This document shows positions 8,294 to 31,918 of a DNA stretch of 64,000 nucleotides, one piece after another. The stretch covers positions 10,647,655 through 10,711,654 of the forward strand of contig CAJINV010000004.1 of NCBI GenBank assembly GCA_905178155.1, in the 5' to 3' direction. The stretch's first letter is position 1, and the number at the start of each line of letters is the position of its first letter. Made by a program: the position numbers and the translations under genes. The notes under the pieces are model-generated. The model saw only the letters and a list, made by a program, of their open reading frames with translations, did not search any database and was not told the origin of the DNA. Source of the DNA: Amoebophrya sp. A120 (Eukaryota; Protista; Dinoflagellata).

Positions 8294-9805
8294 ATCTTCG
8301 AGGATGACCGGCCATACTGTGTTGAGTAGCGCTGGTGCCCCCGCGGAGGACCATGCTGCGGAGGGATGACCATCGGAGCATCAACATGCTGCGAAGTGCG
8401 GAGCTCTTTCACCACACGACCCTACCAGAGAACTTTTTCAACCAGGAGAGACTCATCTTGAGTTCTTGCTGTGTTTTGTTTTTTCCATGAGATGAAGTCG
8501 TCCTTTTCTTCGCGAACTCACAGTTCACTCGGGCGTCATGGGTTTTCTTCCTCGACGAGTGCGGACATAGCGCAGATCTTCACGACCCTCGATTTGCAGT
8601 ACTAGTTCGTTCTTGGGTCGGTTGCCCTTGCCGCCGTCTGATCGTCCAGAACAAGTGGTGCTTTCCGTTCGAGCTAGTTTCGGCGTTTTTTTCTCGTCTC
8701 TGTTTCAATTTTTTTTGGTACGCAGAAATGCTTGCTAACGTTTCCATCAAGTGCTTTGTTCGCGTTAATATTTCCTCAAAAGTTTCATAATACGTGAACT
8801 TTTCTCCCTTATGCAGATGATGCAGCACACTTTAATCCACAATCCACAATTACTGACTCGAAGATTGATTGACCCAATTCAGAGCTTAGCTAAACGGCAA
8901 GGGTCACCCGCCACAAGCCCTTCGGGCCTGAAGTTGCACCAGTTGCTCCTGGTGCGAGTGGTCCATTACCATCTCGTGTACGAGACCTTTCCCACCTTGC
9001 TAAGGAAAAGAACTTTTTAAACCTCAATGCCGACGATAATGTCGTTTCCCACGCGAACTCTATTTTGCTTGTTTTGAAGACGTTAAAATAAAAACGAAAC
9101 GACGCAGCGGCTACTTGCATATAGTATCCGCGAGATGCTAACCCTGACACGCTCTTCGAGCGGTCAAGCTGTAAGTGTACCGCGAGCGTCTGGGAGCGAA
9201 GGTCGAGATAGTATTGCAAGTAAGTAGAGTTGTATTGAGGAGGACGTACGCCGGTGGCTGCACTGCTGCTACGCAAACGTTATCACAGGTGAAAAGAGGG
9301 AACAAGAACTTGGCATAAAACTTGTTCAATCTTCTAGGTGAGAGTTGCTTGCTTGCAGCGAAGGGCGAACATGACAAGCTTCCGTATTTGAGGGTGTGAT
9401 GCAGAGTGTGAGGGGAAAAATAGTGCGAATAGAAATATTTCACTTCTTGTAAAAAAAAAGATGTAGCCCGTCACGTGCGAATGCCAAAATCAACTTTCGC
9501 TGTACTAGAAAGGCCGGAAGTTGTGTTGAGAAGATTGATCAGAGGTTCTGCGATGACGCATCTGTTCATCTAGAATGAAGCGACGACCGCGTTAGTGCTC
9601 GGGTCGGTAGACTACAATGAGCAGAGCTATTCGCCAGCTGAGAAGACGTGGAAATCCCTGAAGAGCCACCCGGTTGTTCGGATGGAGCGGGGCGAAACGG
9701 CAGGTTTGTCCAGCAGACGCATAGAACTCCACCTACGGGCTCGGAGGGACTCCTGCATCAAGACTCCGTTGCTTTATTTCATCCAAACTCCTAAACCACG
9801 AAAAC

Positions 9806-12800: not shown

Positions 12801-15391
12801 GAGGCGCCAAAAGTTCCCCGACAGAGGAATCTTCGTATCGAGAACAGAAAACTACAACTAGAAAGTCCGAGCCGTTTTCCACGACCCAAGCTGACCCCCA
12901 GTATCGTGCTGGTGAACCGACACAGCACAAAGGCTCAGCTACAAACCGAAGCCGAACGAAGGAAAACCGGAGAGAGCATCCTGGGGAGCAGAAACAGCAG
13001 AACAGAGCGGGAGCGGATGGAGAAGGGAGGGAAGGAAGAACTCCCACTGAGATGAACAAGGAAAAAGGAATCTCCGACCTGGAGTCTTCGGAAGACCGCG
13101 AGGCCGTGCAGACCGAGATCCCCATCGTCGCGCCGATAATCCCGCCCGCGCAGCTGATTGCGAGCAGCCACGAGGCGATCCTTGAGAAGGAGAACCAGCA
13201 GCCTGCGGGGACAGCGAAGTATGCAGCGGGGAGTCGTCGAGGTCGACGTGCACCTAGTACAACAACGGGAATAAAGCAGGAGGAGGGTCGTACACCAACC
13301 AGAAGCGGGACAACGCCTCCCGTGGTAGCACCACCACCGGCACAACCCAAGGAGCCAGCAAGAAAGCCGCCCCCCGAGGAACCGGCACCGCAGGCGAAAA
13401 CGGAGTTGATCGTGAAGGCCACGAGTGCCGGCCCGGTGTTTAAGGAGGCCGCGCCGTTCCGCGTTGCCTTGGACGTCCGCCACGACGCGCTCACCGGGCC
13501 ACTGTTCGGGCGAAAAGACCAGTCGCCAGCAACGCCTGTTTCGATCGGAGGGCGGGGTGGCGGGAGTAAGAGTGCTGGGGGTCTCGGAGGTGCTACGACG
13601 TCTTTATTGCAGACCCTGATCAACACTTGGATCGCGGGGGAGGGGCAGGAGAAAGAGAATGCGAAGATGACCAAGACGTCGCATGAAGAAGTTCTTGACC
13701 CTGCTTTCACTTCTACACACCGCAGCCACTCTGGTGCAGGAACCTCCGGGCGGCGGCCCGTGGCACCTGCTCGGGTGGGGCGCGCCTCCGTGGCCAAGAA
13801 GGCTGTGCAGGAGTACTTCTCTTCCAAGAAGAGAACTGCGAAAAATGGAAACAAGGCGAAGAAAACAACAAAAGAAGAAAATAAAAAATCAGAAGTAACG
13901 ATGATCAACGTGGTCCCCATCGTCCCCGATCCGCCTGTGTTTTTACAGCACCACGACGTAGGAGCAGCTGAGACACGACAAAAACAGACGTCTTCTACTA
14001 GCAGGAGGAGCGACAGCACCAGTGTTGGTCTATTGTCGCATCTGCTGCACCAGCACGACCAGAGAAATTATAAGCACCAGCATGAAGATCATCGGTTCCG
14101 AAGGGAGGAAAACACGGAGCGGACGCTGAGCGGAAGTGAATCTTATCAGGCTTTTTACAGAAGGAAAAATCATCCGCTGAAAATTTCTCAATCTGTCAGC
14201 AGTGCGGAGGCTGTACTGCAGCGCATGAAAACTACTAACCAGCGGAAGAGGAGGACGTCGGAGAAACGGAGAAAGTCTGGTGCCAGAGATTCATCGTTGT
14301 CGTCATCATCGTCTCGTCGGGGAAGGGGAAATGAAGATGAAGATGTCGTTTCAACAAGAACATCGTCACGGGGGAGCGGTGTTTCGTCTCCGCGCGGCGA
14401 GAGTGGTCAACAGCACAACCGCAAGGATAAAAAAGACACCAACGCTGCCACCCCCGGGAGGAGAAAATCAAGGTCACTTCGCGACAGCCCCGAGGAGCCC
14501 AAGACCGCGGTTGCGAAACGGTCGTACCAGACGTGGCAGGAGCTCTTGAAGAAGCAGCGGGACCGAAAGGCCAAGCAGGAACATCAAATCTTGAATGAGT
14601 ACCACAACCACGTTGCCATCGTTCGGGAGAAAACGAAGCAGACCGCCGCGGCGCAGCAGACAGAGCAGCAGAACCTGGAGAAGGAGCAGGAGCAGATCCG
14701 CCAGGAGGAGCTGCAGCAGGCGAAAAAGAAGAAAAAACTCGGGTTCGCGGAGACGCTGTTGGAAATTGGCCTGTTCGGGCAGAAGTTCGCGGTCATCATC
14801 GGATTCCAGACCTCGTACGTGATGGCCATCGAGATGTTCCCCACCAGTGTGCGCGCCACGGGCATGGCGGTGGCGCTGGCCGGGGGGCGCATCGGGGCGA
14901 TTGTCGCACCGTCGCTGTACGAAAAGATCCTGCTCGTGACGAACAGCCCCGCCGCGTTCTTTTTCTTTCTGATCGCGATGCTGGGAATCAACTTTTTCTT
15001 GCTCTTAGTCCTGCCCCTGCGGGAAACGGCAGGAAGGCCGCTGACCGAGACCGACAGCAGCAGCTCCGGGGCCAGCGAGCAGGAGGGACAGGAGGGAACG
15101 ATTGCTGGTGCCCTCGAGTCCTCCGATCCGTACGCGCCGAGGGTGATGCTGCTGGAGTTGCTGCACCCGGGCTACTACGAAAGCAAAATAAATCATGAAG
15201 ATCGACAATTTGTTCCAAGCGGTGACAAGAACGATCAAAACATCGCCGAGAAACCACGAAACGACGATTTTTATCAGAGGCAAAATGGAGGTACGACGGG
15301 GACCAGACCATCCACCCAAGACGAACCTGGTCACTCGCCTCTGCCGCCTCTCGCGCGACAGGCGGTGCCAGAGAAGAAAGGCGATGTGTGA
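9806..15391 (+). CDS. MFS transporter, SVOP/SV2-like (paralog 2)
   Basis: Exons ~9806-10093, 10353-10394, 10722-11107, 11323-12296, 12486-15391. Motifs WLMDGAE, GSVGDSLGRR, LPESPSWL, EMFPTSVRATG and LPLRET; clearly homologous to paralog 1; GT-AG intron at 11108-11322. Confidence 0.9.
10094..10347. mobile_element. Introner, family A
   Basis: TIR present; TSD GCGCG; the join gives DGA|ELILL. Confidence 0.95.
10395..10716. mobile_element. Introner, family B (AAAATCCCCCCTCCCCATAT TIR)
   Basis: TSD CGCAG; the join gives AVAQ|EWQF. Confidence 0.95.
12297..12480. mobile_element. Introner, degenerate TIR
   Basis: TATGCATTTGCAAAAGTATC...GATACTTTGCCTAGGATA; TSD CGCGC; frame restored. Confidence 0.85.
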
Positions 15392-16118: not shown

Positions 16119-18239
16119 ATGGCCTACTCCAAGCGGGCGGGATCAGGCGACGCCGAAGACGACAACTTTTACTGCGAACTGGAACTGTGTCACGCGTCGA
16201 CCACCGCGCCCAACGAAGCCAGGTGCAACTCCGATGGAGATGAGGCCTCCAACGAGCCACACAGCACGAGTGAAAACGAGGCTGACCAACATGGAGGTAC
16301 ACGACCTGAAAGAACGGTGACTGAAGTTGTAGAGTCCTCTGCACGAACAGACGATGATCGTCAAGAAGACCCCTTGAAGCAGCTCCCAACCCTTTTGATC
16401 GGATACAGGAAGTCCGGGTATGCCATCCGGTTTAGTCCGAAAAGGCTAGTGATCACGAAGCGAGACCGGCGCGGGCGGTTGTTGCCAAGAATTGTCGAGT
16501 ATTGCAATGTGAACTTTTCCTCGAAAGCTGCTTTTTCCGATTGTGTCGCGGGTGGGAGTCACGAGAGAAGTTCTTGCAGCAGCAGTACTCGTCCACGGCC
16601 AACAAAGAGAAGTACAGAAGAGGAAACGCCAGCTACTGAGGGAGCCCGCGAACAAGGACCATTTCGCGGAAGTGCTTTCTGCGACTTTGAAAAGGCCTTG
16701 CTTGAGGAGAAGGTGCATGAAAAGAACTACGAAGCGGGAAATGCTGCACCTGGAGATCATGATGCGACACGGCGTCGAGACGGGTGGAACACAGTTGTAG
16801 ACGACGGCGTTCCCCCACCTCGCCCCTGGCTGTACAAACTGGTGCGCGACGGGCCGGACCCGGACAATTTCGGCCTGGATGCGGAGACCTACCCGCACGG
16901 GATCCTCGTCGCGAAACTCGACGAAGACACGGGCGAGTTTTGTCTCAAGGACAGATTGTTCATCCTCTCCGACGACAACCGAGTCGGAATTTTCGGCGAC
17001 TTTTCCCGAGAAGGGAAGTTGGAGCGCGGGAGGTATTGCACGATGGAGGGTTCATCTTGTGCTAGAGAAGATGAAGCAGAAGCTCAAGAACCTCAGGCTC
17101 CTGCTCCTCCGCTCATCGACGTTCTCACGGATTTGCGCCCGCTGTACGAGGAATTTCGCCGGTATGCTGTTCTGACGGAAGAGGAGCGTAGTCGAACTAC
17201 AACGGGGGCTGTGTCTAATTCCAAGTGTTCTTTCCTGTTTGACGCTTTCATCGCCGCGTTTCGACGGAATTTTCGAGACCGGATGGAAGCTTCGCTTTGC
17301 GGTTCGTACAAGAATTTTTATGAAAAAATGAAGGAAAGTTCTTGCCGCGGTGGTCTTCGCGACAAGAATATTAGCGGTGGAGAAATATTATTACCAGGGA
17401 ATAAAGACGGGTGTTTATTAGAATCACAATCCTTGTTCGGTGAGGACCTCACGACCGAAACGAGTCTGGGCCGGTTTCCACTCTTGCCCGACGCTTTTGA
17501 AGAACGAGCGGTTTGCGTCAAAGCGGCTGGATACAGCAAGTTTGACGATAACGATGTGGGTGGACAGCAGGAAGAAGCTAGCACTCCTTCTACGAAAGGC
17601 GAAGGTGCGGCAGATTCGGATGGCGGCAGCACAATGGTGAAAAAGAAGACTAGCCTCAAAAATTACGAAAACAATCCGGACCCTGGCGAGGGGCTATTCG
17701 CAAAGAAGCGGTTCGGCAAGGGCGAGCTGGTCGCTTTCTACAATGGGGTGCGGATCTCGCAGGCGGTGTGTGACGGCAGAGACTGGAAAGAAAACGGGAA
17801 CTGTGTAACTTTGTGGAAAGATGAGAAAGTAGATGCATCTTCATCCGACGGCGCTTCCCATGCGGCAACTTCATCTTCTACGCCAGGTGGCGGTGGCGGT
17901 GGCGTTGTGATCGATATCCCGGTGTCGCACAATCGACTGACCGACTACCGCGCCACCGTGGGGCACAAGGCGAACCACTCCCAGAAAAAGGTGAATGCGC
18001 GATATGGCCCGTACACCGCGCATCCCCGGTTCGGCGACATTGTGTGCATCCGCGCTGTGAAGGCGATTGGGGTGGGGGAGGAAGTGTTCTGCGACTACGG
18101 CTATGTGGAGAACAGCGGAGGAAAGGAAGTGACGAAGGAGAATAAAGCAGCTTCCGAAAAAGGAGAAAAGGTACCCTCACATTGCCGCGAGAAAGATGTC
18201 AACCAGACTGCACCGGACTGGTGGCACCCGGACTTGTGA
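16119..18239 (+). CDS. SET-domain lysine methyltransferase, SETD7/SET9-like
   Basis: GEGLFAKK, FYNGVR, YRATVGHKANHS, HPRFGDIVCIRAVKAI, EEVFCDYGY and terminal APDWW match the SETD7 SET/post-SET pattern. Intronless 706 aa. Confidence 0.85.
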   Translation: MAYSKRAGSGDAEDDNFYCELELCHASTTAPNEARCNSDGDEASNEPHSTSENEADQHGGTRPERTVTEVVESSARTDDDRQEDPLKQLPTLLIGYRKSGYAIRFSPKRLVITKRDRRGRLLPRIVEYCNVNFSSKAAFSDCVAGGSHERSSCSSSTRPRPTKRSTEEETPATEGAREQGPFRGSAFCDFEKALLEEKVHEKNYEAGNAAPGDHDATRRRDGWNTVVDDGVPPPRPWLYKLVRDGPDPDNFGLDAETYPHGILVAKLDEDTGEFCLKDRLFILSDDNRVGIFGDFSREGKLERGRYCTMEGSSCAREDEAEAQEPQAPAPPLIDVLTDLRPLYEEFRRYAVLTEEERSRTTTGAVSNSKCSFLFDAFIAAFRRNFRDRMEASLCGSYKNFYEKMKESSCRGGLRDKNISGGEILLPGNKDGCLLESQSLFGEDLTTETSLGRFPLLPDAFEERAVCVKAAGYSKFDDNDVGGQQEEASTPSTKGEGAADSDGGSTMVKKKTSLKNYENNPDPGEGLFAKKRFGKGELVAFYNGVRISQAVCDGRDWKENGNCVTLWKDEKVDASSSDGASHAATSSSTPGGGGGGVVIDIPVSHNRLTDYRATVGHKANHSQKKVNARYGPYTAHPRFGDIVCIRAVKAIGVGEEVFCDYGYVENSGGKEVTKENKAASEKGEKVPSHCREKDVNQTAPDWWHPDL

Positions 18240-19263
18240 CGTCGCGGGCGGGCCAGCAAGTGGGCAGGACGAGAGCTCCAGTGAAGGGAAAGCACGATGC
18301 TGAACCACAGACGTGGGTCCGGAACTACTTGTAAAGTGAGTAATGAAGAATTTGTGACGACCTCTGAAGATGTCGATGTGTCTAAATCTTCAAGCGACAA
18401 ATAAAGAAATGAACTCAACCGTCACCCGGTGGTCTTGTTTCGAAAAAACTACCCAGTGCGGTAGGAAAAATAACTTTTCACTCCTTGCTGTTCCAAACCC
18501 CAAACCGTCGTCGAAGCAAAGAGAACGTTCGTCGGATCCTTCAAATTCTGATATTGATCATGTGAACGTCCCCTGCTACTCTAGCAGCTTTCATATGTGG
18601 CGGGCACTAGCAGATTTCATATTTGCATATACGATTTTTCGCCGCGGAAATAACAATTGGCCCTTACCGATTCAAAATGAAAAATTGCGTCGATGCAAAA
18701 TTGCAAAAACCAAAAGATCAATACCCCTGCTCCCATGATCTTGTTCTTGAAAACGATATCTGGAAGGTTCGACGATGAAGATGGCAACGTGTGATCCTCT
18801 GCTGAGTAGGGGTCACGACATGGTTCATCTGAAAAAAAAAACTCCCTACTTGTTCGGCTTGTTCGATACCAAAATCTCGTCCAAGACGATTTCCCGCGCT
18901 CGGATGATCAGGAGATGAAATATCACACTCCTCAACATATTTCCGTCCAACTTGTTGCCAATGACAGCAACAGGCAGTGATAGCCGCATTTCTTCTAGTG
19001 AATGAAGAATGTAGTCAGGCGACAACGTTGTTTTCTTCAAAGTTCCAGGCATTGATATAGCCTGCTGAGCATCATTCTTCCTAGATAGAAGAGCTATATC
19101 TATCAACAACTAAGTAGCCTATTTGTTGGGCGTGCTTCGTGTGCAGAAATAGCAACGCAAAATCTTTGCGACCCCTTCCATTGTGCCTTTATCTAATATT
19201 CACAGCCCCACCTTCGACGTTTTGGTTTTCTTTCTCTGCAGTAGAACTGTAGTTCCATACAAG

Positions 19264-22200
19264 ATGAAAGCTCGCCTCTTGTGGATCACTCTGATCTGCC
19301 TATGTCTATCGTCGCAGCAGCTTGGTACGGTCTACTCGTCCAGAGCAGCGCCTAGCACCGCACCGCGCAGGAATCCTGCAAGCCTATCGAAGAGTAGTTC
19401 CAAACCGGCTGTGAAAGAAGTTTTCGGAATCGCGGCGGCGGCCTTCTGTGAGATTGTGCTCGACACCGAAAGCAATCTGCTGAACCGGGTGAAATGGGAA
19501 CTGAATGCAACTTCTGGGGTTGACCCTGACCCAAAGAAGGCCGACGCTCCGTCTGACGCTGAATTTTCTGAAAACAGCTGGTCTGCTGTGCTCTACAAGG
19601 CGGCGTTCGACCTGCGAGGGCTGAACCACGGACCCATTCGTCGGGTCATCAACAGCCTCGAAGAGGTGGTTGCCCCATCGTCGCGGCTGCGAGATGATGA
19701 GCGGAGTACAAAGTTAGAGCGGGATGCGCTTATCTACAGCCGGCTGCAGATTCTGGATGCGTTAGAGGCCTTTCAGGTGCAGCCCGACGTGGTTCATGAG
19801 CAGTTGGCCAAGCGGTGTGCGAAGGAACTGATGTTTCAACAAGTAGAGTTCCTTCCTTCAAAAATACTCGCTAACACGACCCTGTCAATGGCTTTGCAGG
19901 CCAATGGTCAACAGGAAGTGCAGCTTCGGGAGCAAGTAGATCCTCTCACAGCTCATCAACAAAGTAGCGTCATGCACCGCCAGCTACAGGAGCGCTACGA
20001 CTTCGTCTGGCTGTACATGTTTCAAGGCAACCCGGTGCGGCTGGCGATCCGCACCGAGCTGACGAAGCGCTTCGTGGATTCGTCTGACGACCGGGTCGTG
20101 CACTACGAGCTGACGGCCAGCGCGAAGCCGCATTGGGTCGGTTCTGTCTGCGAGGTGGATCAGATTTCGGACACTATCGGACGCGACTATCCGATGGGCA
20201 CCGAGAGCCAGATCGCCAGGACACTGGCAGCGGGGTTACACGAGTCTCAAGAGTTCGCCCGCAGGTCAGCACCAACAGCCGGCCTGGAGATCGGGTCTGG
20301 AAGGTTTTTCCTGCAGTCCAGCAGAGAAGCCGTGGCTTTTTTGTTCGTTCAAAATAACTTCGGATACGGATCTTTGCGCTCATCTGAGGATCATGTCGTC
20401 TCGCCGAGCCACGCTTGCGGCAGCGCCACAGGAGGTATGTCGGAATTTACACCGGAAGAGCTATCGAAGCAGTTTTCGCAGCACCAAGTTGCGCAGGCCT
20501 GTTTGGCGGTGATGCAGCAGCCCACGGAGCAATTCTGCATCGGTCCAACCCATGACCGGAAAAGTGCGGGTCTATCGTCGAAGCAAGATGTGAAAAAGCT
20601 TCCCACCCTGTGCTCCTCCTGTCCTGATTTAGAAGTCAAGGGTGGAGCTGTCAACTTCCCTGCACTGGAGCTAAGCAATGTGGAGCTCCTTCAACTCGCG
20701 ATGCGCGTTGCCGTGCGAAAGCGGAGCGATTTTGTAGCAGAAGTGCGGCGACATCGAGAGCCGAACGCGAAAAACCCGCCATCTCCGCCGTTATTTGACT
20801 TCTTCAGCAAGGCGCTGGCGGAGGTACGCGGGCCTGGCAGTTGGGCAAAGAAGTCGGCGGCGTTGTACAAGACAGATCATATTACACTAGACGATCATGC
20901 GGAGTACAACGACACACCGCCAGTCGCGTCGGAGATCCTTACGGAAATTTGTGGCCCGCTCCTACAACCCTTTGTGAACCTGACCCAAACGCCTGTGAAA
21001 TTGCTAGCAAAAATAAGTGAAAATCGCAGAGGTCTTAGCTGGAACAGCTTCGCCCGGCGCGGGTTGGTCATGCTCCAGGTGTCGCCTGGTCGCGGGGCAG
21101 GCCTAGATTCGCCCACAACTGCGGCTGCGCCGGTAGGTTATCACGAGGAAGGCCCCGAGAACCTCTTGTTCTTTCCCCTGACCGCACTCCGCCACGACGA
21201 CCCATCTTCGACGCCCTCGGCTGTTTTTACTCCTTCCGGAGCGAAATCTCGAATGGAAGTCCGGGTCGGGGGCCTGATTCCAAGCGGACCTTGGGATGAA
21301 ACTGGCACCGAAAAGGAAGAGAAGAACGCAGGCCCACCTAATTACGCAATCTTTTTCGATTTTGAGGAGGTCGAGCCGGAGGACGCAGCAGCGCAGCACG
21401 CCGCCAGGGCGGGGCCCGAAACATCTGCAGGTGCACGGGGAAACCATCAACAGGATCCAAATCGTTTTTCTCCGAGGTCAGCGAGAACGAGAGCGTCGGG
21501 GAATAAAACAACCGCCCGGGTGTATTTTTCTGCCCTTGCCTTTGAGGCCTTGGAAAACCATCACGCACGCAGGGCGAGAGAAGCTAAAGAGAGTTACTTT
21601 GCTTCGTCCGTCGCGAGGCGCAGGGATCCGAGAGACCCGCACGGCTGGGGCGCGAGCGCCCGGAAGCAGATGGGCAGGCCGGTTTCGTTTCCGGACACCA
21701 GGGACACCAAGCCGAACAATTTAGGACAGCGGAAGCTCTTCGAAGGGGCCCTGCTGCCGACGTGGGAGGAGTATGACCTGCTCACCGAAGTGATCGGCCA
21801 GGGGATTGCTTTGCAGGAAGTGATGCTGGCTGCGGGTCGGGGCCAGCTACGTGGCGGCGGGTCTAGTACTTTTGCTCTGTTGAAAAAGCACAAGGAGCTC
21901 GAGGCAGAGACTTTCTTCCTGCTCGGGAAGGATACTGCTGCCGCGTCGACCACGCCGTCAGGCGGCACTGCGGCAGGGGGAGAGGGAATATCGCCTCCTT
22001 CGAGGGTGGAGTCCCGGGACGGACCAATTCGCCGTCGCCGCCAGACGCGGAGCCCGTCCATTCCTTTCTCCCGGAATCATGCCGCCCGACGCAGAAACAG
22101 TAAAGGGCGCAAGAGGACTTCCAGGGCCCCAACTGCAGACGGGGCAACAAGAGCTCCAAGTGCAGAGAGCAGGAACAAAGAAAATGCTAGTTCTGCAAGT

Positions 22201-25200
22201 ATGATTCGACGGGAGCTCCGGGAGGAGATACAGAACGGGTTCACGGCGCTTCACCCCGGCATCGTGGAGACAATGACGCAGCATTTGCAGAGTCTGCCCC
22301 TGTTGCAGCGCTGCGGCGTGCGCATCGACCTGTTCGGGTCCGCGTTGAACGGGTTCGGCACACCGAGCAGTGACCTTGACATCTCGTTCACGCCCACGAA
22401 GCCGTGTTCTTTGAGCACACTGCTGCTCCATGACCTTTTGTCGGAGCCGAAAGACAAAGCGGCCCAAGTCCCCATTGAGTTTCGCTCCAGTCAGACCACC
22501 GTGCGAAAGGACGGGAAACTGGTTTTTGCTCCTGCCACCTCGTCCACGAGAACCAGCAACGCTCGCGGTACTACTAGCCCAACACCCACTTGTACTAGTA
22601 GTGCAGCCCCCTCGGAGCAGCCGCAGTGGTCAACAGCAACCGCACTTGGGGGCGAGGACGAGCGCACGCTTAACAGTGTCGATTTTTCTGACAGCGAGCA
22701 ACGACAGCGGTACAAAAACCGGTTCTGGTTCCTGGAAAACCTCACCCAAGGCTTGTTTCGCACCGACGCGGCGCACACGGGTAACATCCTGGTGCAAGAA
22801 GACGACGTGTTGATGAAGTGGGTGTCCGTGAAACTGAACCGCAATCCCCCAGCACCCGCGCACCAATTTGGAACAACGACTGCTCCTCCGGGCACCAGCA
22901 ACGACGGGTGGGTGCAGGCCAAGGGGACCTTCGCCGTCAAGTCCACCCTGCTGCACACCCTCCCGGAGGAGAAGAGCAAGCGGGAACGGCGGTTGACCAG
23001 TGAGGCGGTCCGAGGACGCGAAGATGTTTATTCCACCGAGGGGGTGGTGCAGGTGGTGGACAAGAACTCAGGTCGTGGTGCAGCGGTTTGGACGTACTTT
23101 ACCGTGGACCTGACCGTGAACAACTTCGCACCGGAGGCACGGCGAAAACGCGACACGCTGCGCCAGATCGCAGTGTCCGACCCGGTGCTCCGGACGGTGG
23201 GCCGCCTGTTCCTCAAGTTCGCCAAGCGCTCCGGCCTCACCGGCACGGCGCACGAATACGGCTTCGAGCGGATGCCTTCCTTCCGCTTCATGCTCATCTT
23301 TCTGCAGTGGGTGGTAAAGGAGAGGTTCTTCGAATTAAGCTTCGTCCGTAGTAAAATCATACCCTCCAGGAGCACCGTCGACGGCGACGTGTCCGTACCG
23401 CAATTCACGGCAAATTTGTCGAAAAACTCCGCTTTTCAGGCGCACTACAAGCAGCTTTCGAAGAAAGAGGGGGAAGTAGCTGAAGCCGACATGATGATCG
23501 CATTTGTGGAAACGTTGTACCGAAAGTTGATAACCTACGTGAACACCACAGTGCTCTCCGTGGTTGACCACCACGCGGGCCCGCGCGACTCGCTCCTCCG
23601 GCCCGAAGATTTCCTGTCGCGGTTCGCGCTGCTGGTGCAGAATCAGCAGATTCAGCAGCCTGTAGTATTTGCGCCGTCGATTCAACCTTTTCCCCCTATG
23701 TACCAGGGGAGAAACCCCTGGGTCGGGGCGTTCGGCGGAACAGGAGTCGTGGGGGCAGCCACGTCGCCGCTGCGCGAGCACAGGAGTGTGCGACTTGCGG
23801 AGGTCAGGCAGTCGCTGTGGTCCTGGGATCCCTGGTTGCCGCCGGACAACCGGACGAGCTTCAAGTATTACAACCCAAAATTGTTTTTCTCCGCCTTCCA
23901 CGACGAAGCCTACCGTTTGGAACAGGCGTACCAGAACGAAACATCGAGTGCAGCTGGTTGTACCGAAGTACCGTCTCCCTCGACCACTGGTGCCGAGTCA
24001 CCGTCGCGGCGGGGGCTGAACCTGTCCGCACCGGTCTTCGTCCCCGGGGCGCCATGTGAAGGAGCTCTCACTTCTGGAGCTTTCGGCCCGGGAGGTGGGT
24101 TCGTCGGTTCCGTCGCCGGAGGAACAGGGGGAGGCGCTTGCGTTGGAAACAGTGGTATCTTTTGTGGAAGTCCGCCGTTAGGTGGGGTCGTGCCCCAGCA
24201 GGGAGGGGCGTCGCCTTCCTCCTTTGCGTTGCCTTCCTCCTTACCACTGCTAGTGCATCAGAGGACTACAACAACAGCTCCCGTACCATCCTCAACCTCA
24301 ACGTCAACGCCACCCACGGGATCTTATATTTATACCGCCCCGGCGCCACATCGACAGAAATCGCGTCCAAGTAGGACGAGCAATAGTTCATTCTCGGGCC
24401 CGGGTCTATTTTTACCCTCATCGCAGCCCCCAGTATACGCCGCACCCAGTGTTGTAGATCTGCCTCCAGCACCCTACATCCCTTCACAGGAGGACAACAG
24501 ACACGGAAAAATATTTGGAACACCAGCAGACGTATTAAGCCCTTGTGATGTAGTTCAACATACTACATCAACTTTTGCTGAGCAGCTCGTGACGGCAAAG
24601 CCACATGATTCGCGACATAATTCGGAGGGCAGTTCTTGTTCTGTGACTACACCCTCAGGTGGCCATAGTCGTTCCTCGCCAGCCACCACCGCGCAAGTGG
24701 CTACGACGGGTGGTGCAGCTGCTTCCTCCTCCACGGCCGCGCCGCTTCCGCTTCCCCCTCCTCGTCGATCCGTAAACAAGCTGCAGAACAGGGCCTACAA
24801 TCCCAAAGCGGATCGACCCCGCACTTGTTCCGAAGATGCTGGAGGTGTTGATGTTGTACCTGCCCCGGAGGTCGCGCCAGCAGCAGAAGCGGAGCAAACA
24901 GAGCGAGAGGCAGGTATTGTAGGGAAGGCTGATGACGGCACGCTCCTGCAAGGCGGTGGAGGTAGTAGAAGCAGTTCTAGAACTAGCATACGGCGCAGAG
25001 CAACATCAAGGCCCGCAGCCACACGGAGGAGCAGGAGCCCGAACAATCGTCCCACCACCAGCGGGAGAACCGAAGAACTGACTCTGGTACAACAACAACA
25101 GTCTCCACCCTGGCCCGCCGCGCAAGAAGTTGTTCACCTAGATGTTGGTAGTCGTCGTCCTTCAGGTGGAACTATTTTTGGGTCTTCACAAGAAGAAGAG

Positions 25201-25434
25201 CCGGTTGTTTCGACGTCCCAGCTCAATCATGCTGCTGGTGGAACATCATCAGCCAGTCCCAGTCCTCCGTATCTGCTCTCGGGCACGACTAGAAATGTGC
25301 CGGCGCCAGAAGTACTAGAGGAGGACCACTCCCAGGAGAACACGCTGGTGAGAAGGGTGGGGAATGTTATTAACGAGTTTGTTCCATCGCTTCCATCGGC
25401 GCTGGTCAGCAACTGGTCGTGGAGCCCCCAGTAA
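19264..25434 (+). CDS. Large Cid1/TUTase/non-canonical poly(A) polymerase-family nucleotidyltransferase with N-terminal signal peptide and PAM2-like motif
   Basis: N-terminus MKARLLWITLICLCLSSQQLG; LFGSALNGFGTPSSDLDISF (~22330-22389); third Asp in VDLTVNN (~23104-23124); DPVLRTVGRLFLKFAK helix; LNLSAPVFVP (~24016-24045). Confidence 0.8.
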   Translation: MKARLLWITLICLCLSSQQLGTVYSSRAAPSTAPRRNPASLSKSSSKPAVKEVFGIAAAAFCEIVLDTESNLLNRVKWELNATSGVDPDPKKADAPSDAEFSENSWSAVLYKAAFDLRGLNHGPIRRVINSLEEVVAPSSRLRDDERSTKLERDALIYSRLQILDALEAFQVQPDVVHEQLAKRCAKELMFQQVEFLPSKILANTTLSMALQANGQQEVQLREQVDPLTAHQQSSVMHRQLQERYDFVWLYMFQGNPVRLAIRTELTKRFVDSSDDRVVHYELTASAKPHWVGSVCEVDQISDTIGRDYPMGTESQIARTLAAGLHESQEFARRSAPTAGLEIGSGRFFLQSSREAVAFLFVQNNFGYGSLRSSEDHVVSPSHACGSATGGMSEFTPEELSKQFSQHQVAQACLAVMQQPTEQFCIGPTHDRKSAGLSSKQDVKKLPTLCSSCPDLEVKGGAVNFPALELSNVELLQLAMRVAVRKRSDFVAEVRRHREPNAKNPPSPPLFDFFSKALAEVRGPGSWAKKSAALYKTDHITLDDHAEYNDTPPVASEILTEICGPLLQPFVNLTQTPVKLLAKISENRRGLSWNSFARRGLVMLQVSPGRGAGLDSPTTAAAPVGYHEEGPENLLFFPLTALRHDDPSSTPSAVFTPSGAKSRMEVRVGGLIPSGPWDETGTEKEEKNAGPPNYAIFFDFEEVEPEDAAAQHAARAGPETSAGARGNHQQDPNRFSPRSARTRASGNKTTARVYFSALAFEALENHHARRAREAKESYFASSVARRRDPRDPHGWGASARKQMGRPVSFPDTRDTKPNNLGQRKLFEGALLPTWEEYDLLTEVIGQGIALQEVMLAAGRGQLRGGGSSTFALLKKHKELEAETFFLLGKDTAAASTTPSGGTAAGGEGISPPSRVESRDGPIRRRRQTRSPSIPFSRNHAARRRNSKGRKRTSRAPTADGATRAPSAESRNKENASSASMIRRELREEIQNGFTALHPGIVETMTQHLQSLPLLQRCGVRIDLFGSALNGFGTPSSDLDISFTPTKPCSLSTLLLHDLLSEPKDKAAQVPIEFRSSQTTVRKDGKLVFAPATSSTRTSNARGTTSPTPTCTSSAAPSEQPQWSTATALGGEDERTLNSVDFSDSEQRQRYKNRFWFLENLTQGLFRTDAAHTGNILVQEDDVLMKWVSVKLNRNPPAPAHQFGTTTAPPGTSNDGWVQAKGTFAVKSTLLHTLPEEKSKRERRLTSEAVRGREDVYSTEGVVQVVDKNSGRGAAVWTYFTVDLTVNNFAPEARRKRDTLRQIAVSDPVLRTVGRLFLKFAKRSGLTGTAHEYGFERMPSFRFMLIFLQWVVKERFFELSFVRSKIIPSRSTVDGDVSVPQFTANLSKNSAFQAHYKQLSKKEGEVAEADMMIAFVETLYRKLITYVNTTVLSVVDHHAGPRDSLLRPEDFLSRFALLVQNQQIQQPVVFAPSIQPFPPMYQGRNPWVGAFGGTGVVGAATSPLREHRSVRLAEVRQSLWSWDPWLPPDNRTSFKYYNPKLFFSAFHDEAYRLEQAYQNETSSAAGCTEVPSPSTTGAESPSRRGLNLSAPVFVPGAPCEGALTSGAFGPGGGFVGSVAGGTGGGACVGNSGIFCGSPPLGGVVPQQGGASPSSFALPSSLPLLVHQRTTTTAPVPSSTSTSTPPTGSYIYTAPAPHRQKSRPSRTSNSSFSGPGLFLPSSQPPVYAAPSVVDLPPAPYIPSQEDNRHGKIFGTPADVLSPCDVVQHTTSTFAEQLVTAKPHDSRHNSEGSSCSVTTPSGGHSRSSPATTAQVATTGGAAASSSTAAPLPLPPPRRSVNKLQNRAYNPKADRPRTCSEDAGGVDVVPAPEVAPAAEAEQTEREAGIVGKADDGTLLQGGGGSRSSSRTSIRRRATSRPAATRRSRSPNNRPTTSGRTEELTLVQQQQSPPWPAAQEVVHLDVGSRRPSGGTIFGSSQEEEPVVSTSQLNHAAGGTSSASPSPPYLLSGTTRNVPAPEVLEEDHSQENTLVRRVGNVINEFVPSLPSALVSNWSWSPQ

Positions 25435-26302
25435 GGACAGGGCGGGAAGAAGAATCTGCACCTACTTCTTCAGAAGCACATCAATCTACTTTCTTATCAG
25501 CATGCGGGTCTTAGTGTTTTTTCTACTACGCTGCATAGCAGTAAACAAGGATACGATAATTTTAGGTGGTGTAGCTATGTCGTCGATGGATGCATTTTTA
25601 GAGTTGTACGATATTATAACCTGCGACAGGTGCAAGACAGAGGAGATATTTCCCCAGATCCTTTCTTTTCCACTACATCATGCAAGTAGCTGTGGCTGTT
25701 ACTCGTCTCTCTAACTATATCGCGGAAGAAAAATGTATATGATTTTCGAACGGCAATTATTTTTGATCGTCAACGACGTCGACCACCTCCAGCATCCGTC
25801 GTTTTTCTGAGCTAAAGTTGACTCAACGCTTTCGACCGCTATGCCAAATTAAAGCCCTACTTGTACATAAGAAATTGTCGTTCGCAAAGATGGGGACAAA
25901 CATTTTGTACCTGCATGAAATAAATCTGTGCATAATTAAAATCTTGCTACAAGGAAGTCATTATAGGGCAGTCTGTCGTTGTGGTCTACGACTAGTAGTA
26001 TTCTCATCGATGGTCTAAAAATTGCTTGGAGATCATAGTACAGCTATTGCATTAGAGCCGTGTACAATTAAATCATAAGTTTGTTTTGACTTTGTCTGTA
26101 TTCAAGAATTGTTCCGCATCACCCTCCTCATATTTATTTTTTTGATTGATGTCCAAGTAACTCCCTGAGGGAAACGGAACGTGCGGAAGGAGCTTCCATT
26201 TTTCTGAAATCTGTGTAGGCATCAACCGCAAGATCCATGGTGCAGTAAGTATTGGAAAAACTGGCAGTATACGAAGTGAGTCATTCTCTTCTTGCGATGT
26301 AA

Positions 26303-26435
26303 GTGGCTCTTGTCGGCGAAAGACCAGTTGCACGAAAAGCAAAAGCAAAAGCTCCTGTGTGGAGATTAAGGGGAGTTCTATTTGTGCGCCGCGATAGTAT
26401 TTGTGTTCGTAACTGCGATGAGGACAACATGTTAA
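26303..26435 (+). repeat. ~125-bp direct repeat, copy 1
   Basis: CGAAAGACCAGT..GAAAAGCAAAAG.TCCTGTGTGGAGAT..GGGGAGTTCTATTTGT also occurs at ~31990-32120. Confidence 0.8.
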
Positions 26436-29992: not shown

Positions 29993-31918
29993 GTGTCAGG
30001 GCTACAGCTATCTATTCTTCGAATCAGGATGCTGATCCAACTCCTTGCACTTGTTGCAGGCGGAAAAATGGTAGGTGTTTCGCCTTTAATTCTGCTTATT
30101 TGGCCTCATCCGAACAACAACATCAGCCACCCCCCCCCCCCCCCCCTTCGCCCAAAAATCTCGGCTCCGTCCGCAAACACTACGGATACTGCGACGCGAA
30201 TTAATACGAATATGACAATAGCATCGCGGGATGCGGAGGTACAAGATGAGATTGCTTTTGCGCAGAGGGTGATGCAGGCCCAGGACCTTTATTTTGCTCG
30301 AGTACGTGTACAGGATATGCGATCAAATATGAAGACGCAATGGCTCCAAGCACGAACGGCGCTCGAATTTGCGGAGGCGAATCTTCGCATGATTGAATTC
30401 GAATTGCAGCTAATACACGATAGGGAAGACCAGATGAAACAAAGCGACTTTCGGGAAAACGACCTGGATTACAACTTTTTCGTAAACTTCCACGTGCTCC
30501 AAGATCATTACGCTGACATCTACGGTATCGATTTGCCCGAGGCGCAGACGGACGAAGTAGATTTGCCTGTAGTCCGCGCTGCCGCTTGCTCATTTACCTG
30601 TGCCGACTGGAACGATGATTTTGTGATCGATCCAAAAGAGGAAGCTTCTACCTCTTGCTCCCTCCTGCAAATCCCCTCTACTGGCCCACGAGAACGCGAA
30701 GGGATCGACGTGATAGAGTATTTCGAGAACTGCGGCCCCGAAGGACACGAAGTGATGGATCTACAACATGGCCGCGTGAACATTAACAACAAAACAAGAA
30801 TAACATACGAGGAACTTCATCACAAAGGCAACAGCACAGCGACGGGGGGATCGCCGTCGACCACTTTGCAGCTGGATGAGCACCTGAAGCCATGGCGTGA
30901 ATATTTGCCCTCCTGGGCCCGCTCATCGTCGGAGGCCGGCTCATCGTCGGAGTCAATCTCTTCTTCAGGTTCAGGGTCATCATCAACATCAGGGTCGTCC
31001 TCATCCGGGTCGTCGTCGGCCATATCTGACGAAACAGTGATATCAGAGGCAAGCAGTGACTCACGACGGAAAGCCCGCCTAGGGCGAGCAGCCTGGGAGC
31101 AATTACGGGCCAGGTGGCGCCGTCCTCGGCAAGAGCGAGACTCGCCAAATCCGGACGAAGATTCCGCCGAATCTGATTGGGTACCGCCAAGCCCTACAGA
31201 ATTTTCGGCCGAGACCATCGCAGAGACGAGTAGAGTCGCAGGAGATCTCATGAAACAGCGAATCATACCCACACCAGGCCGTCAAATGGCTGTCGACTAC
31301 GCGCGAACCCGGGACTTGGAAAATCGCAGGAAGAAGCAAGAAGAAACTGAAACAAAAAATGATATCCTTTCCGAAGGGGGGAACGAGCCCGGACAGCTCC
31401 TGTCTACACGGAGAGATATAAACGCGAGAACATATCCAGTGGACGGGAGGTTCAGCACGTTGAGGCACACTGGCACCGCCACCGGTTTATCAACACGGTT
31501 CATGCGGGAGGCGAATGGACCGTGCTTCTGTAGTGATGAAGAAACTCGTAATCGCCGCGATCGACAAGTGAAACGTCGCGCAAAGGCTTTGCGCGAGGCG
31601 GATTATACTGTGACCATTTTGCCCACCTTAAAAATGGAGATTATGGGAAAAGAAACGATTCTTACCAAGGGAGACATGAAGAACCTCCAACTCATGACTA
31701 CAGAAAAGGGGACCAGGCAAAGACTTCTGACTGTAAAAGAAGCGAACAAGAAGTATACAAAGCGGTATATCTATGAAGAGAAAGAATTCTTTGATGAAAA
31801 TTCGGATCACGACCGTTTCAACTCGCCGAAGTCCAACGAAGGGCGAAAGTTTGTGTTGATGCCCAAAAAGCAAGACGAGAATAGTGATTCTAGAGGCTGG
31901 ACGTCTTGGCTTCGTTGA
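29993..31918 (+). CDS. Hypothetical intronless protein, possibly element-borne (start uncertain; ATG at 30211 plausible)
   Basis: 641-codon ORF with a coiled-coil-like N-terminal part and a Ser-rich linker; no recognisable domain. Confidence 0.55.
   Translation: MSGLQLSILRIRMLIQLLALVAGGKMVGVSPLILLIWPHPNNNISHPPPPPLRPKISAPSANTTDTATRINTNMTIASRDAEVQDEIAFAQRVMQAQDLYFARVRVQDMRSNMKTQWLQARTALEFAEANLRMIEFELQLIHDREDQMKQSDFRENDLDYNFFVNFHVLQDHYADIYGIDLPEAQTDEVDLPVVRAAACSFTCADWNDDFVIDPKEEASTSCSLLQIPSTGPREREGIDVIEYFENCGPEGHEVMDLQHGRVNINNKTRITYEELHHKGNSTATGGSPSTTLQLDEHLKPWREYLPSWARSSSEAGSSSESISSSGSGSSSTSGSSSSGSSSAISDETVISEASSDSRRKARLGRAAWEQLRARWRRPRQERDSPNPDEDSAESDWVPPSPTEFSAETIAETSRVAGDLMKQRIIPTPGRQMAVDYARTRDLENRRKKQEETETKNDILSEGGNEPGQLLSTRRDINARTYPVDGRFSTLRHTGTATGLSTRFMREANGPCFCSDEETRNRRDRQVKRRAKALREADYTVTILPTLKMEIMGKETILTKGDMKNLQLMTTEKGTRQRLLTVKEANKKYTKRYIYEEKEFFDENSDHDRFNSPKSNEGRKFVLMPKKQDENSDSRGWTSWLR

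What the first reader, a model, noticed from the sequence alone, without database searches (positions are those of the whole stretch)
19264..25434. Putatively secreted TUTase/poly(A) polymerase carrying a PABP-binding PAM2 motif: candidate RNA-tailing effector
Seen: a hydrophobic signal-like N-terminus, an intact GS-x10-DLD...D catalytic triad, and LNLSAPVFVP after the catalytic region, in an intronless 6.2-kb ORF. Known: Cid1/TUT/Trf4 enzymes are normally nuclear, cytosolic or mitochondrial, and PAM2 (LNxxAxEFxP) binds the MLLE domain of cytosolic PABP. Inference: a signal peptide plus a cytosolic docking motif would fit export into the host cell to tail host mRNAs. An alternative is organellar targeting.
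Basis: partly seen in the sequence, partly recalled or inferred. Interest (0 to 1): 0.78.

Follow-up and report, generated by a model that had tools for sequence, protein, structure and literature searches.

The report
Signal-peptide-bearing divergent RNA-tailing enzyme, parasite gene
A gene of what is probably a dinoflagellate-infecting parasite (Amoebophrya-like) encodes a very divergent RNA-tailing enzyme that begins with a signal-peptide-like segment, so it is predicted to be secreted and might act on host RNA; neither secretion nor the PABP-docking motif is shown, and that motif is absent from the four known relatives.

Summary
Window 19264-25434 (+) is one open frame of 2,056 codons. It starts with MKARLLWITLICLCLSS. 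It carries FGS-x10-DLD (G1025/S1026, D1037, D1039), a third Asp (D1282) and LNLSAPVFVP (aa 1585-1594).

ATG 19264 is the first ATG after an in-frame stop, and no ATG lies in the 183 nt before it. The enzyme assignment to the Cid1/TUT type rests on four points:
- the motif;
- a sub-threshold Pfam hit;
- a fold search whose upper ranks are mostly TUTases (Z 6.4-8.4, on a poor model);
- 5-of-5 conservation of the catalytic residues.

A search of 1.8 billion proteins found only four relatives, all from Amoebophrya sp. AT5.2. The window is therefore probably from an Amoebophrya-like syndinian parasite of dinoflagellates. One relative has its own signal-peptide-like start at the aligned place. None of the four has the PAM2 core, though the core is rare by chance (39 of 20,000 shuffles).

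Published work says the genus has lost its plastid and, in AT5, likely its mitochondrial genome. That weakens the organellar alternative. Export to the host and PABP docking remain untested.

Verdict: a new, lineage-specific variant of a known enzyme kind, and a candidate secreted enzyme rather than a demonstrated one. Public protein models cover only fragments of it.

The parts
19220..19241 (+). Pyrimidine-rich tract ending in CAG, 22 nt before the ATG. It is a candidate spliced-leader (DinoSL) or cis acceptor.
   Evidence: Read from the sequence (CAG at 19239-19241). No contig bridges it. Its function is inferred only.
19264..25434 (+). Complete coding frame, 2,056 aa plus the TAA stop.
   Evidence: The in-frame stop TAG lies at 19150-19152. 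No ATG lies in 19081-19263.
19264..19314 (+). Signal-peptide-like N-terminus MKARLLWITLICLCLSS (aa 1-17).
   Evidence: Heuristics: n-region charge +3, apolar run aa 5-17, CLS|SQQ and LSS|QQL fit the -3/-1 rule. It aligns with the hydrophobic start of P0006.
19315..22200 (+). N-terminal region of about 960 aa with no known domain. It is sparsely conserved with P0006, P0007 and P0004.
   Evidence: No Pfam family. No atlas hit. AlphaFold pLDDT 31.7. Conserved islets appear in alignment A1.
22066..22125 (+). Basic cluster FSRNHAARRRNSKGRKRTSR (aa 935-954). It looks like a nuclear-localisation or RNA-binding patch.
   Evidence: it is the only 20-aa window with at least 9 K/R. The functional reading is inference.
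22237..23943 (+). Nucleotidyltransferase module (aa ~992-1560): palm domain plus helical central domain.
   Evidence: Pfam PF22600 E 6e-5, 23.6 bits against a cut-off of 27. PDB sequence matches to TUT7 and MEAT1. VIA-align matches to MEAT1 Z 8.4, GLD-2 8.3, URT1 7.5 and TUT7 7.5 over model residues ~12-490. Atlas features 0.94 to PF22600 clusters.
22333..22389 (+). Active-site strand and turn FGSALNGFGTPSSDLDISF (G1025, S1026, D1037, D1039).
   Evidence: FGSA..GF.T..SD.D.SF is conserved in 5 of 5 family members.
22381..23106 (+). 242-aa T/S-rich insertion between the second and third catalytic Asp.
   Evidence: In Cid1 the spacing is 57 residues (D103 to D160; PMC13702519, passages). The length varies among homologues.
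23095..23124 (+). Third-Asp strand YFTVDLTVNN (D1282, N1286, N1287).
   Evidence: The Asp is invariant in 5 of 5. The model predicts a beta-strand here, residues 296-306. The Asn pair at D+4/D+5 matches the numbering of Cid1 D160/N164/N165.
24016..24045 (+). PAM2-like peptide LNLSAPVFVP (aa 1585-1594) in a low-complexity linker.
   Evidence: It matches the L, N, A, F and P of the consensus LNxxAxEFxP quoted in PMC7356810 (passages). It is absent from 4 of 4 homologues.
24046..25431 (+). 462-aa S/P/G/A/T-rich C-terminal tail.
   Evidence: Composition. GC3 falls to 0.43-0.44 in aa 1601-2000. No Pfam family in aa 1566-2056.
25357..25386 (+). Weak second PAM2-like string VGNVINEFVP (aa 2032-2041), judged unlikely to be functional.
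   Evidence: It matches only the relaxed pattern. It has Ile where the consensus Ala sits, and a bulkier side chain there is described as sterically highly unfavourable (PMC7356810).
25435..26340 (+). Flank downstream of the stop, carried on the same contig as the 3' third of the ORF. It is a possible 3' UTR.
   Evidence: A contig of run X1 spans 23680-26340 without differences. The run type is a guess.

Best explanation
The 6,171-nt frame encodes a 2,056-aa protein whose C-terminal half carries the Cid1/TUT-type nucleotidyltransferase signature with all three catalytic aspartates, and whose first 16-17 residues look like a cleavable signal peptide. It is therefore predicted to enter the secretory pathway. 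It would likely be released by the parasite toward its host, where it would add untemplated nucleotides to RNA 3' ends.

Shown directly:
- the frame, the motifs and the first-AUG position;
- conservation of the catalytic residues in all five family members;
- a signal-peptide-like start in one relative.

Inferred:
- The organism is an Amoebophrya-like syndinian, because the only relatives are from Amoebophrya sp. AT5.2.
- The hydrophobic start works as a signal peptide. Charge balance in both proteins predicts the rest of the chain on the lumenal or outer side.
- The enzyme is active and uses RNA.
- The released enzyme reaches host RNA. This would be easiest at the stage when the trophont lives in the host nucleus.

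The PAM2-like peptide could then dock the enzyme on poly(A)-binding protein of poly(A)+ RNA. I rate that step as the weakest. The nucleotide added (U or A) cannot be told from the sequence.
For: Enzyme:
- GS-x10-DLD plus D1282.
- PF22600 E 6e-5 in this protein and E 3e-4 to 9.5e-4 in 4 of 4 homologues.
- The profile of the family matches MEAT1 TUTase at E 2.6e-4.
- A fold search without Foldseek puts TUTases and non-canonical PAPs at most of its upper ranks: MEAT1 Z 8.4 with 222 aligned, GLD-2 8.3 and 8.0, URT1 7.5, TUT7 7.5, TbTUT4 7.3, then Tailor, Trf4, TUT1, Cid1 and PAPD1. The matches span both domains.
- Language-model features score 0.94 to PF22600 clusters.

Start and signal:
- An in-frame stop lies at 19150-19152 and there is no ATG in 19081-19263.
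- n/h/c regions and -3/-1 sites are present. N-flank charge is +3 against +1 for the C-flank.
- P0006 has MARQQ + AAYCASLLLLALLGL + VAA|VPV at the aligned place, just before the shared AEAFC motif. P0007 has a hydrophobic stretch in the same columns.
- This protein and P0006 have the two highest N-terminal hydrophobic peaks (2.76 and 2.81) among the 14 N-termini scored. The nine other window ORFs reach at most 2.60.
- There is no other membrane-span-like segment.

Family pattern:
- Only 6 hits among 1.84 billion representatives: 2 are fragments of this gene and 4 are from Amoebophrya AT5.2. Two of those four bear consecutive gene-model numbers (g2247, g2248) and so are probably neighbours.

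Biology:
- The trophont develops inside the host nucleus. A parasitophorous vacuole is described for the early cytoplasmic stage. A steady decline of host transcripts has been described (PMC9478091, passages).

PAM2:
- 5 of 6 specified consensus positions match, with chance 39 of 20,000 shuffles.
Against: - No trained signal-peptide or localisation predictor was available; the call rests on heuristics.
- The closest homologues by catalytic-domain identity (P0004 49%, P0005 44%) have models that lack the N-terminal ~200 aa. Conservation of the signal in the likely orthologue is therefore untested.
- P0007's model puts about 40 residues before its hydrophobic stretch.
- An acceptor-like CAG lies 22 nt before the ATG, so an upstream coding exon cannot be excluded.
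- All Pfam scores are below the curated cut-off. The structural model is poor (pLDDT 43.6). Foldseek found nothing at E <= 0.001. The tool states that Z of about 8 is common for unmatched models.
- The PAM2 core is in 0 of 4 homologues.
- RNA-tailing enzymes of this family are known as nuclear, cytosolic or mitochondrial proteins (general knowledge). A basic cluster and a PAM2-like peptide are features of nucleo-cytoplasmic proteins.
- Nothing shows expression during infection, secretion or activity.
Confidence: 0.4

Rival explanations
1. It is the parasite's own cytosolic or nuclear non-canonical poly(A)/poly(U) polymerase. The hydrophobic start would not act as a secretion signal, or the real N-terminus would differ. 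The PAM2-like peptide would dock it on the parasite's own poly(A)-binding protein, and the basic cluster would be its nuclear or RNA-binding patch.
For: - This is the usual location of the family (general knowledge).
- There is a PAM2-like peptide in a disordered linker and a basic cluster at aa 935-954.
- An acceptor-like CAG 22 nt before the ATG allows an upstream exon.
- P0007's model carries 40 residues before its hydrophobic stretch.
- Public protein models of this locus are fragments, so gene structure here is uncertain.
Against: - The ATG is the first in at least 183 nt and follows an in-frame stop.
- The hydrophobic start has full n/h/c anatomy and recurs in P0006 at the aligned position.
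- The PAM2 core is not conserved (0 of 4).
Confidence: 0.3
2. It is a secretory-pathway or extracellular protein with a nucleotidyltransferase fold that does not tail RNA. It could nucleotidylylate a protein or a small molecule, or be an inactive scaffold. The PAM2-like string would be a chance match.
For: - The family is extremely divergent: below Pfam cut-offs and with no PAP_assoc hit.
- There is a 242-aa insertion inside the palm.
- The residues at the places of Cid1 N171/T172 are not Asn/Thr. This comes from my inspection against the numbering.
- P0006 and P0007 have lost the Asn pair after the third Asp.
- The PAM2 core is not conserved.
Against: - The active-site strand is closest to bona fide RNA TUTases (MEAT1, TUT7).
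- The best structural matches are RNA-tailing enzymes covering both domains.
- All three catalytic acids are kept in 5 of 5 members.
Confidence: 0.12
3. It is an organellar RNA-tailing enzyme, either mitochondrial or in a relic plastid reached through the secretory route.
For: - After the hydrophobic start comes a stretch rich in S/T/A/P/R/K with no acidic residue until about aa 50, which recalls a transit peptide.
- The best Pfam model is named after mitochondrial poly(A) polymerase.
Against: - The genus is reported to have lost its plastid and reduced its mitochondrion (PMC7789003, passages), and AT5 likely lacks a mitochondrial genome (PMC6482013, listing abstract). There would be little or no organellar RNA to tail. 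This holds only if the organism assignment is right.
- The basic, acid-free stretch is not shared by P0006.
- A 13-residue apolar run is not typical of mitochondrial presequences (general knowledge).
Confidence: 0.06

Closest known systems
Cid1-family terminal ribonucleotidyltransferases (S. pombe Cid1, human TUT4/TUT7, GLD-2/TENT2, Arabidopsis URT1, trypanosome MEAT1 and TUT4)
   Same: - The hG-S...D-x-D strand and turn, with the third Asp on a later strand.
- An Asn pair at D+4/D+5, as in Cid1 D160/N164/N165.
- A two-domain architecture, by the VIA-align matches.
   Different: - It scores below every Pfam cut-off and has no PAP_assoc hit.
- It has a 242-aa insertion inside the palm.
- It has about 980 aa of unknown N-terminal sequence that starts with a signal-peptide-like segment.
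- It has no zinc knuckles or RRM by Pfam.
- Relatives are found only in Amoebophrya.
PAM2-bearing partners of the PABP MLLE domain (Paip1/2, ataxin-2, eRF3, LARP4, GW182)
   Same: A peptide that matches L, N, A, F and P of LNxxAxEFxP and lies in a low-complexity linker of an RNA 3'-end enzyme.
   Different: - It has Val instead of Glu before the Phe.
- It is not conserved in the four relatives, and binding is untested.
- In my search for PAM2 together with TUTase names, none of the 12 papers listed held the word PAM2.
Exported dense-granule effectors of Toxoplasma (GRA16, GRA24, TgIST). Recalled, not fetched here.
   Same: The layout: signal peptide, long disordered regions, and a basic nuclear-type cluster in a protein of an intracellular alveolate parasite.
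   Different: - Those effectors are not enzymes of this kind.
- No export motif was found near the N-terminus here: the first R.L.[EQD] is at aa 239 and the only RRL is at aa 1242.
- Such motifs are not known to apply to syndinians.
TENT5/FAM46 cytoplasmic poly(A) polymerases
   Same: A non-canonical poly(A) polymerase family linked to the secretory system. It acts on mRNAs that encode signal-peptide proteins (PMC9668313, listing abstract).
   Different: By that abstract TENT5 is a cytoplasmic enzyme. Here the enzyme itself carries the signal-like start.

Membership tests
Cid1/TUT-type non-canonical ribonucleotidyltransferase (Pol beta-like NTase) | hG[GS]-x9-13-D-h-[DE]-h active-site motif | tested here: met
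   FGSALNGFGTPSSDLDISF, with G1025, S1026, D1037 and D1039. It aligns to the same motif of TUT7 and MEAT1.
Cid1/TUT-type non-canonical ribonucleotidyltransferase (Pol beta-like NTase) | Third catalytic carboxylate on a later beta-strand (Cid1 D160) | tested here: met
   D1282 in FTVDLTV is invariant in 5 of 5 members. The model predicts a strand at residues 296-306. The Cid1 triad is quoted from PMC13702519.
Cid1/TUT-type non-canonical ribonucleotidyltransferase (Pol beta-like NTase) | Match to the curated Pfam models (PF22600, PF01909, PF03828/PF26180) at their gathering scores | tested here: not met
   PF22600 scores 23.6 bits against 27. PF01909 scores 13.2 against 21. There is no PAP_assoc or PAP-OAS1 hit. 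The four homologues score 19.7-21.3 bits.
Cid1/TUT-type non-canonical ribonucleotidyltransferase (Pol beta-like NTase) | Two-domain fold: palm inserted in a helical PAP/OAS1 substrate-binding domain | tested here: inconclusive
   VIA-align Z is 8.4-6.4 to MEAT1, GLD-2, URT1, TUT7, TbTUT4, Tailor, Trf4, Cid1 and PAPD1 over 180-231 residues. The model has pLDDT 43.6, and Foldseek's best E-value is 0.11.
Cid1/TUT-type non-canonical ribonucleotidyltransferase (Pol beta-like NTase) | Template-independent NMP addition to RNA 3' ends, and nucleotide choice (His of the recognition motif for UTP) | not testable with these tools
   This needs an enzyme assay. The recognition-motif residue could not be mapped on the low-confidence model.
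PAM2 motif (ligand of the PABP MLLE domain) | Consensus LNxxAxEFxP with Phe at position 10 and a small residue at the Ala position | tested here: met
   LNLSAPVFVP keeps L, N, A, F and P, with Glu replaced by Val. The consensus is quoted from PMC7356810.
PAM2 motif (ligand of the PABP MLLE domain) | Conservation of the motif in homologues | tested here: not met
   0 of 4 Amoebophrya AT5.2 homologues hold the strict core. Their C-termini are short or of doubtful modelling.
PAM2 motif (ligand of the PABP MLLE domain) | Physical binding to an MLLE domain | not testable with these tools
   No MLLE sequence of host or parasite was at hand, so no complex prediction was run.
Cleavable Sec-type signal peptide | Positive n-region, 7-15-residue apolar h-region, and a c-region with small residues at -3/-1, at the true N-terminus | tested here: met
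   Heuristic script. It is the first AUG after an in-frame stop, and there is no upstream ATG in 183 nt.
Cleavable Sec-type signal peptide | Positive call by a trained predictor (SignalP, TargetP, DeepLoc) | not testable with these tools
   No such predictor is among the tools.
Cleavable Sec-type signal peptide | Conservation in relatives | tested here: inconclusive
   P0006 is a clear case. P0007 has a hydrophobic stretch in the same columns but 40 residues into its model. The P0004 and P0005 models lack the region.

The most novel reading that the evidence does not exclude
A syndinian parasite secretes an RNA-tailing enzyme into the nucleus or cytoplasm of its dinoflagellate host. There the enzyme, docked on poly(A)-binding protein through its PAM2-like peptide, marks host transcripts by untemplated tailing and so contributes to the decline of host transcripts during 'zombification'. 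This would be the first RNA 3'-tailing effector of a eukaryotic parasite, and Amoebophrya would hold a small, fast-evolving family of them.
Probability: 0.17. Interest if true: 0.85.

Novelty: new variant of a known kind. Interest (0 to 1): 0.52.

Why it matters
Syndinian parasites (marine alveolate group II) kill bloom-forming dinoflagellates, yet none of the Amoebophrya papers I read names a molecular effector. A signal-peptide-bearing member of the RNA-tailing enzyme family would give a concrete, testable candidate for how the parasite acts on host RNA while the host cell keeps working.

Even on the conservative reading, three things follow:
- The locus shows that the public protein set holds only fragments of this gene (58, 117 and 720 aa), and all of them miss the active site.
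- The family is so divergent that curated profiles do not call it.
- Relatives are known only from Amoebophrya.

Tried and rejected
- **Own genome.** None is held, so paralogues and a PABP/MLLE gene could not be sought.
- **Word-indexed homologue searches.**
  - The whole protein gave nothing.
  - The family profile gave only this gene's own 720-aa fragment.
  - The N-terminal 979 aa against shorter proteins gave only its own 58-aa fragment.
- **Collection scans with the family profile.** Metagenome contigs gave 442 pattern matches and 0 confirmed. Viral contigs gave 88 and 0.
- **N-terminal region.** No Pfam family and no atlas hit. The AlphaFold model has pLDDT 31.7 and pTM 0.20, so it is unusable and was not searched.
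- **Foldseek against PDB.** No match at E <= 0.001.
- **RNA evidence.**
  - No RNA holder is listed.
  - Three RNA runs with the same species label laid 0 reads, which is no test.
  - In the four contig runs the stretch 18454-19065 has no cover. I do not use this as evidence.
  - No contig bridges 19232-19249, so the acceptor-like CAG stays untested.
- **Spliced-leader relics.** Short DinoSL 3'-end patterns gave no hit in the window.
- **Export motifs.** There is no R.L.[EQD] before aa 239 and the only RRL is at aa 1242. These are apicomplexan rules and may not apply.
- **Second PAM2-like string.** VGNVINEFVP at the C-terminus was rejected because Ile sits at the Ala position.
- **Plastid-type bipartite leader.** I considered it because of the acid-free S/T/R-rich stretch after the signal. 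I rejected it because the stretch is not shared by P0006 and plastid loss is reported for the genus.
- **Other features of 17-27.5 kb.** Rfam gave no family. Tandem repeats gave only one 35-nt array inside the tail.
- **Earlier findings of the scan.** Nothing by place, sequence or words.
- **Literature.** Three searches listed no secreted TUTase effector and no PAM2-bearing TUTase among the papers shown: 10 shown; 12 shown; 10 shown. This is not proof of absence in print.

Full report
**What is there**

Between 19153 and 25434 on the + strand the frame is open from stop to stop. The first ATG is at 19264 and the stop TAA at 25432-25434, giving 2,056 aa. It is by far the longest ORF in the window, and 10 of the 11 ATG-ORFs of at least 250 aa lie on the + strand.

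Neighbouring ORFs hit sugar-transporter/MFS, SET and Utp14 families. The transporter matches are spread over three separate ORFs, so this is an intron-bearing eukaryote.

GC at third codon positions is 0.58-0.78 through aa 1-1600 and 0.43-0.44 in the S/P/G/A/T-rich tail. The flanks have 0.42-0.45 GC overall.

**The start**

An in-frame TAG lies at 19150-19152, and there is no ATG in any frame between 19081 and 19263. ATG 19264 is therefore the first AUG of any transcript that starts in that stretch.

A pyrimidine-rich tract ending in CAG (19220-19241) lies 22 nt before the ATG. It could be a spliced-leader acceptor. Dinoflagellates, Amoebophrya included, trans-splice a leader (PMC7789003, passages). 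In that case the ATG is still the first AUG. It could also be a cis acceptor for an upstream exon, which I cannot exclude.

Contigs of four runs of one sample are colinear with the genome at 19081-19231 and 19250-19464, and with 5,373 of the 6,171 ORF bases in all. One contig runs from 23680 to 26340. No joint was reported. The library type of these runs is only guessed to be RNA, so this is weak support for an unspliced gene. It is no proof of expression.

**The N-terminus**

The sequence MKARLLWITLICLCLSS has three signal-peptide traits:
- a positive n-region;
- a 13-residue apolar run, with peak hydrophobicity 2.76 over 10 aa;
- small residues at -3/-1 for cleavage after aa 16 or 17.

The charge balance is N-flank +3 against C-flank +1. 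That predicts the N-terminus stays cytosolic and the rest is translocated. No other segment looks like a membrane span.

Of the nine other long ORFs of the window, none has a higher N-terminal peak (at most 2.60). No trained predictor was available.

**The enzyme**

The active-site features are these:
- FGS-ALNGFGTPSS-DLD (G1025, S1026, D1037, D1039) is the Pol-beta-type nucleotidyltransferase motif.
- D1282 in FTVDLTVNN is the third acid.
- Cid1's triad is D101/D103/D160, with N164/N165 four and five residues after the third Asp (PMC13702519, passages). Here N1286/N1287 sit at the same offsets.

The evidence for the family assignment is as follows:
- Pfam gives only PF22600 (MTPAP-like palm) at E 6e-5, 23.6 bits against a cut-off of 27.
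- PDB sequence search gives TUT7 at E 0.07.
- With the family profile, PDB search gives MEAT1 at E 2.6e-4, over the motif only.
- The AlphaFold model of aa 980-1565 is poor (pLDDT 43.6, pTM 0.42, five sequences), and Foldseek found nothing at E <= 0.001.
- The Foldseek-independent search placed RNA-tailing enzymes at most of its upper ranks: MEAT1 Z 8.4 (222 aligned), GLD-2 8.3 and 8.0, URT1 7.5, TUT7 7.5, TbTUT4 7.3, then Tailor, Trf4, TUT1, Cid1 6.5 and PAPD1 6.4. The matches span model residues ~12-490, which covers both domains.
- Other Pol-beta-fold proteins sit among those ranks at similar Z: the nucleolar factor Utp22 (6rxv_UV, Z 8.1, rank 3; 4m5d_A, 6.6), OAS2 (7.2), TdT (7.2) and DNA polymerase beta (6.8).
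- The tool warns that Z near 8 is common. I take the agreement of motif, profile, fold ranking and language-model features (0.94 to PF22600 clusters) as good, but not curated-grade, evidence.
- A 242-aa T/S-rich insertion separates the second and third Asp. In Cid1 the spacing is 57 residues.

**Relatives**

HMMER against 1.84 billion representatives found six proteins.
- Two are 100%-identical fragments of this gene (720 aa from M1337, and 117 aa). A third fragment of 58 aa turned up later. All three lie on one 11.76-Mb contig of the public record.
- None of the three fragments contains the signal or the GS...DLD motif. The full-length reading is therefore not in the public protein set that I could see.
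- The other four are EukProt models of Amoebophrya sp. AT5.2 (907, 413, 1,271 and 1,205 aa). Two of them bear consecutive gene-model numbers (g2247, g2248), so they are probably neighbours.

All five family members share:
- HP.V;
- FGSA..GF.T..SD.D.SF;
- V.M.W.S;
- the third-Asp strand;
- an invariant AK;
- MPSFRF.

P0006 and P0007 also align with the N-terminal region (AEAFC, VFRAAF, LDALQ, VY.FLY). The arrangement of N-region plus enzyme in one protein is thus conserved.

P0006 begins MARQQ-AAYCASLLLLALLGL-DVAA|VP. That is a signal-peptide-like start in the columns that hold ours. P0007 has PLLLALLRYLAPAAAV in those columns, but 40 residues into its model. The P0004 and P0005 models lack the region.

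From these relatives I infer that the window comes from an Amoebophrya-like syndinian. I did not try to identify the record.

**The PAM2-like peptide**

LNLSAPVFVP matches L, N, A, F and P of the consensus LNxxAxEFxP (PMC7356810, passages). It lies in a low-complexity linker about 300 aa after the third Asp.

It is the only such string in six frames of the window, and it arises in 39 of 20,000 shuffles of the protein.

None of the four relatives has it. They are only 25-30% identical overall and end soon after the enzyme module, so this counts against the motif but is not decisive.

A second string, VGNVINEFVP, has Ile at the Ala position. The same paper describes a bulkier residue there as sterically highly unfavourable, so I reject it.

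**Mechanism**

The most likely reading is a divergent, probably active RNA 3'-tailing enzyme that enters the secretory pathway.

- Organellar targeting is disfavoured, if the organism assignment holds. The genus is reported to have lost its plastid and reduced its mitochondrion, and AT5 likely lacks a mitochondrial genome (PMC6482013, listing abstract).
- The trophont grows inside the host nucleus. A parasitophorous vacuole is described for the early cytoplasmic stage. Host transcripts have been described as declining steadily (PMC9478091, passages).
- A secreted tailing enzyme could therefore meet host RNA. That step, the enzyme's activity, its nucleotide choice and PABP docking are all inferred.

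The main rival is an ordinary parasite-internal enzyme whose hydrophobic start is not a secretion signal, or is not the true N-terminus.

**Verdict**

This is a lineage-specific new variant of a known enzyme kind, and a reasonable but unproven effector candidate. Literature searches listed no secreted TUTase effector and no PAM2-bearing TUTase among the papers shown.

Noticed in passing
window 19264-25434: The public protein set that I could reach holds only three fragments of this ORF: 58 aa, 117 aa and 720 aa from M1337. None includes the signal-like start or the GS...DLD active site, so the deposited annotation appears to split or truncate the gene.
   Followed up: partly
window 5648-15391 (+): Sugar-transporter/MFS matches are spread over three ORFs (5648-6607, 11336-12343, 12410-15391) that cover different parts of the profile. 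This is either one or two transporter genes with introns and a long insert, or tandem copies.
   Followed up: no
window 16119-18424 (+): A SET-domain ORF (706 aa) lies directly upstream. Contigs of the four runs continue 117-185 nt past its stop, to 18356-18424.
   Followed up: no
window 1-64000: 10 of the 11 ATG-ORFs of at least 250 aa are on the + strand. This is a co-oriented gene block, as described for dinoflagellate and Amoebophrya genomes.
   Followed up: no
window 30029-31918 (+): A 629-aa ORF with no Pfam family also starts with hydrophobic stretches (MLIQLLALVAGGKMVGVSPLILLIW). It is possibly another secretory or membrane protein.
   Followed up: no
window 58779-60098 (+): An ORF with a Utp14 (small-subunit processome) match, E 1.8e-9.
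   Followed up: no
P0006 and P0007 (Amoebophrya sp. AT5.2): The two paralogues with consecutive gene-model numbers have Ala-Arg where the other three family members have the Asn pair after the third catalytic Asp. They may differ in substrate handling or activity.
   Followed up: no
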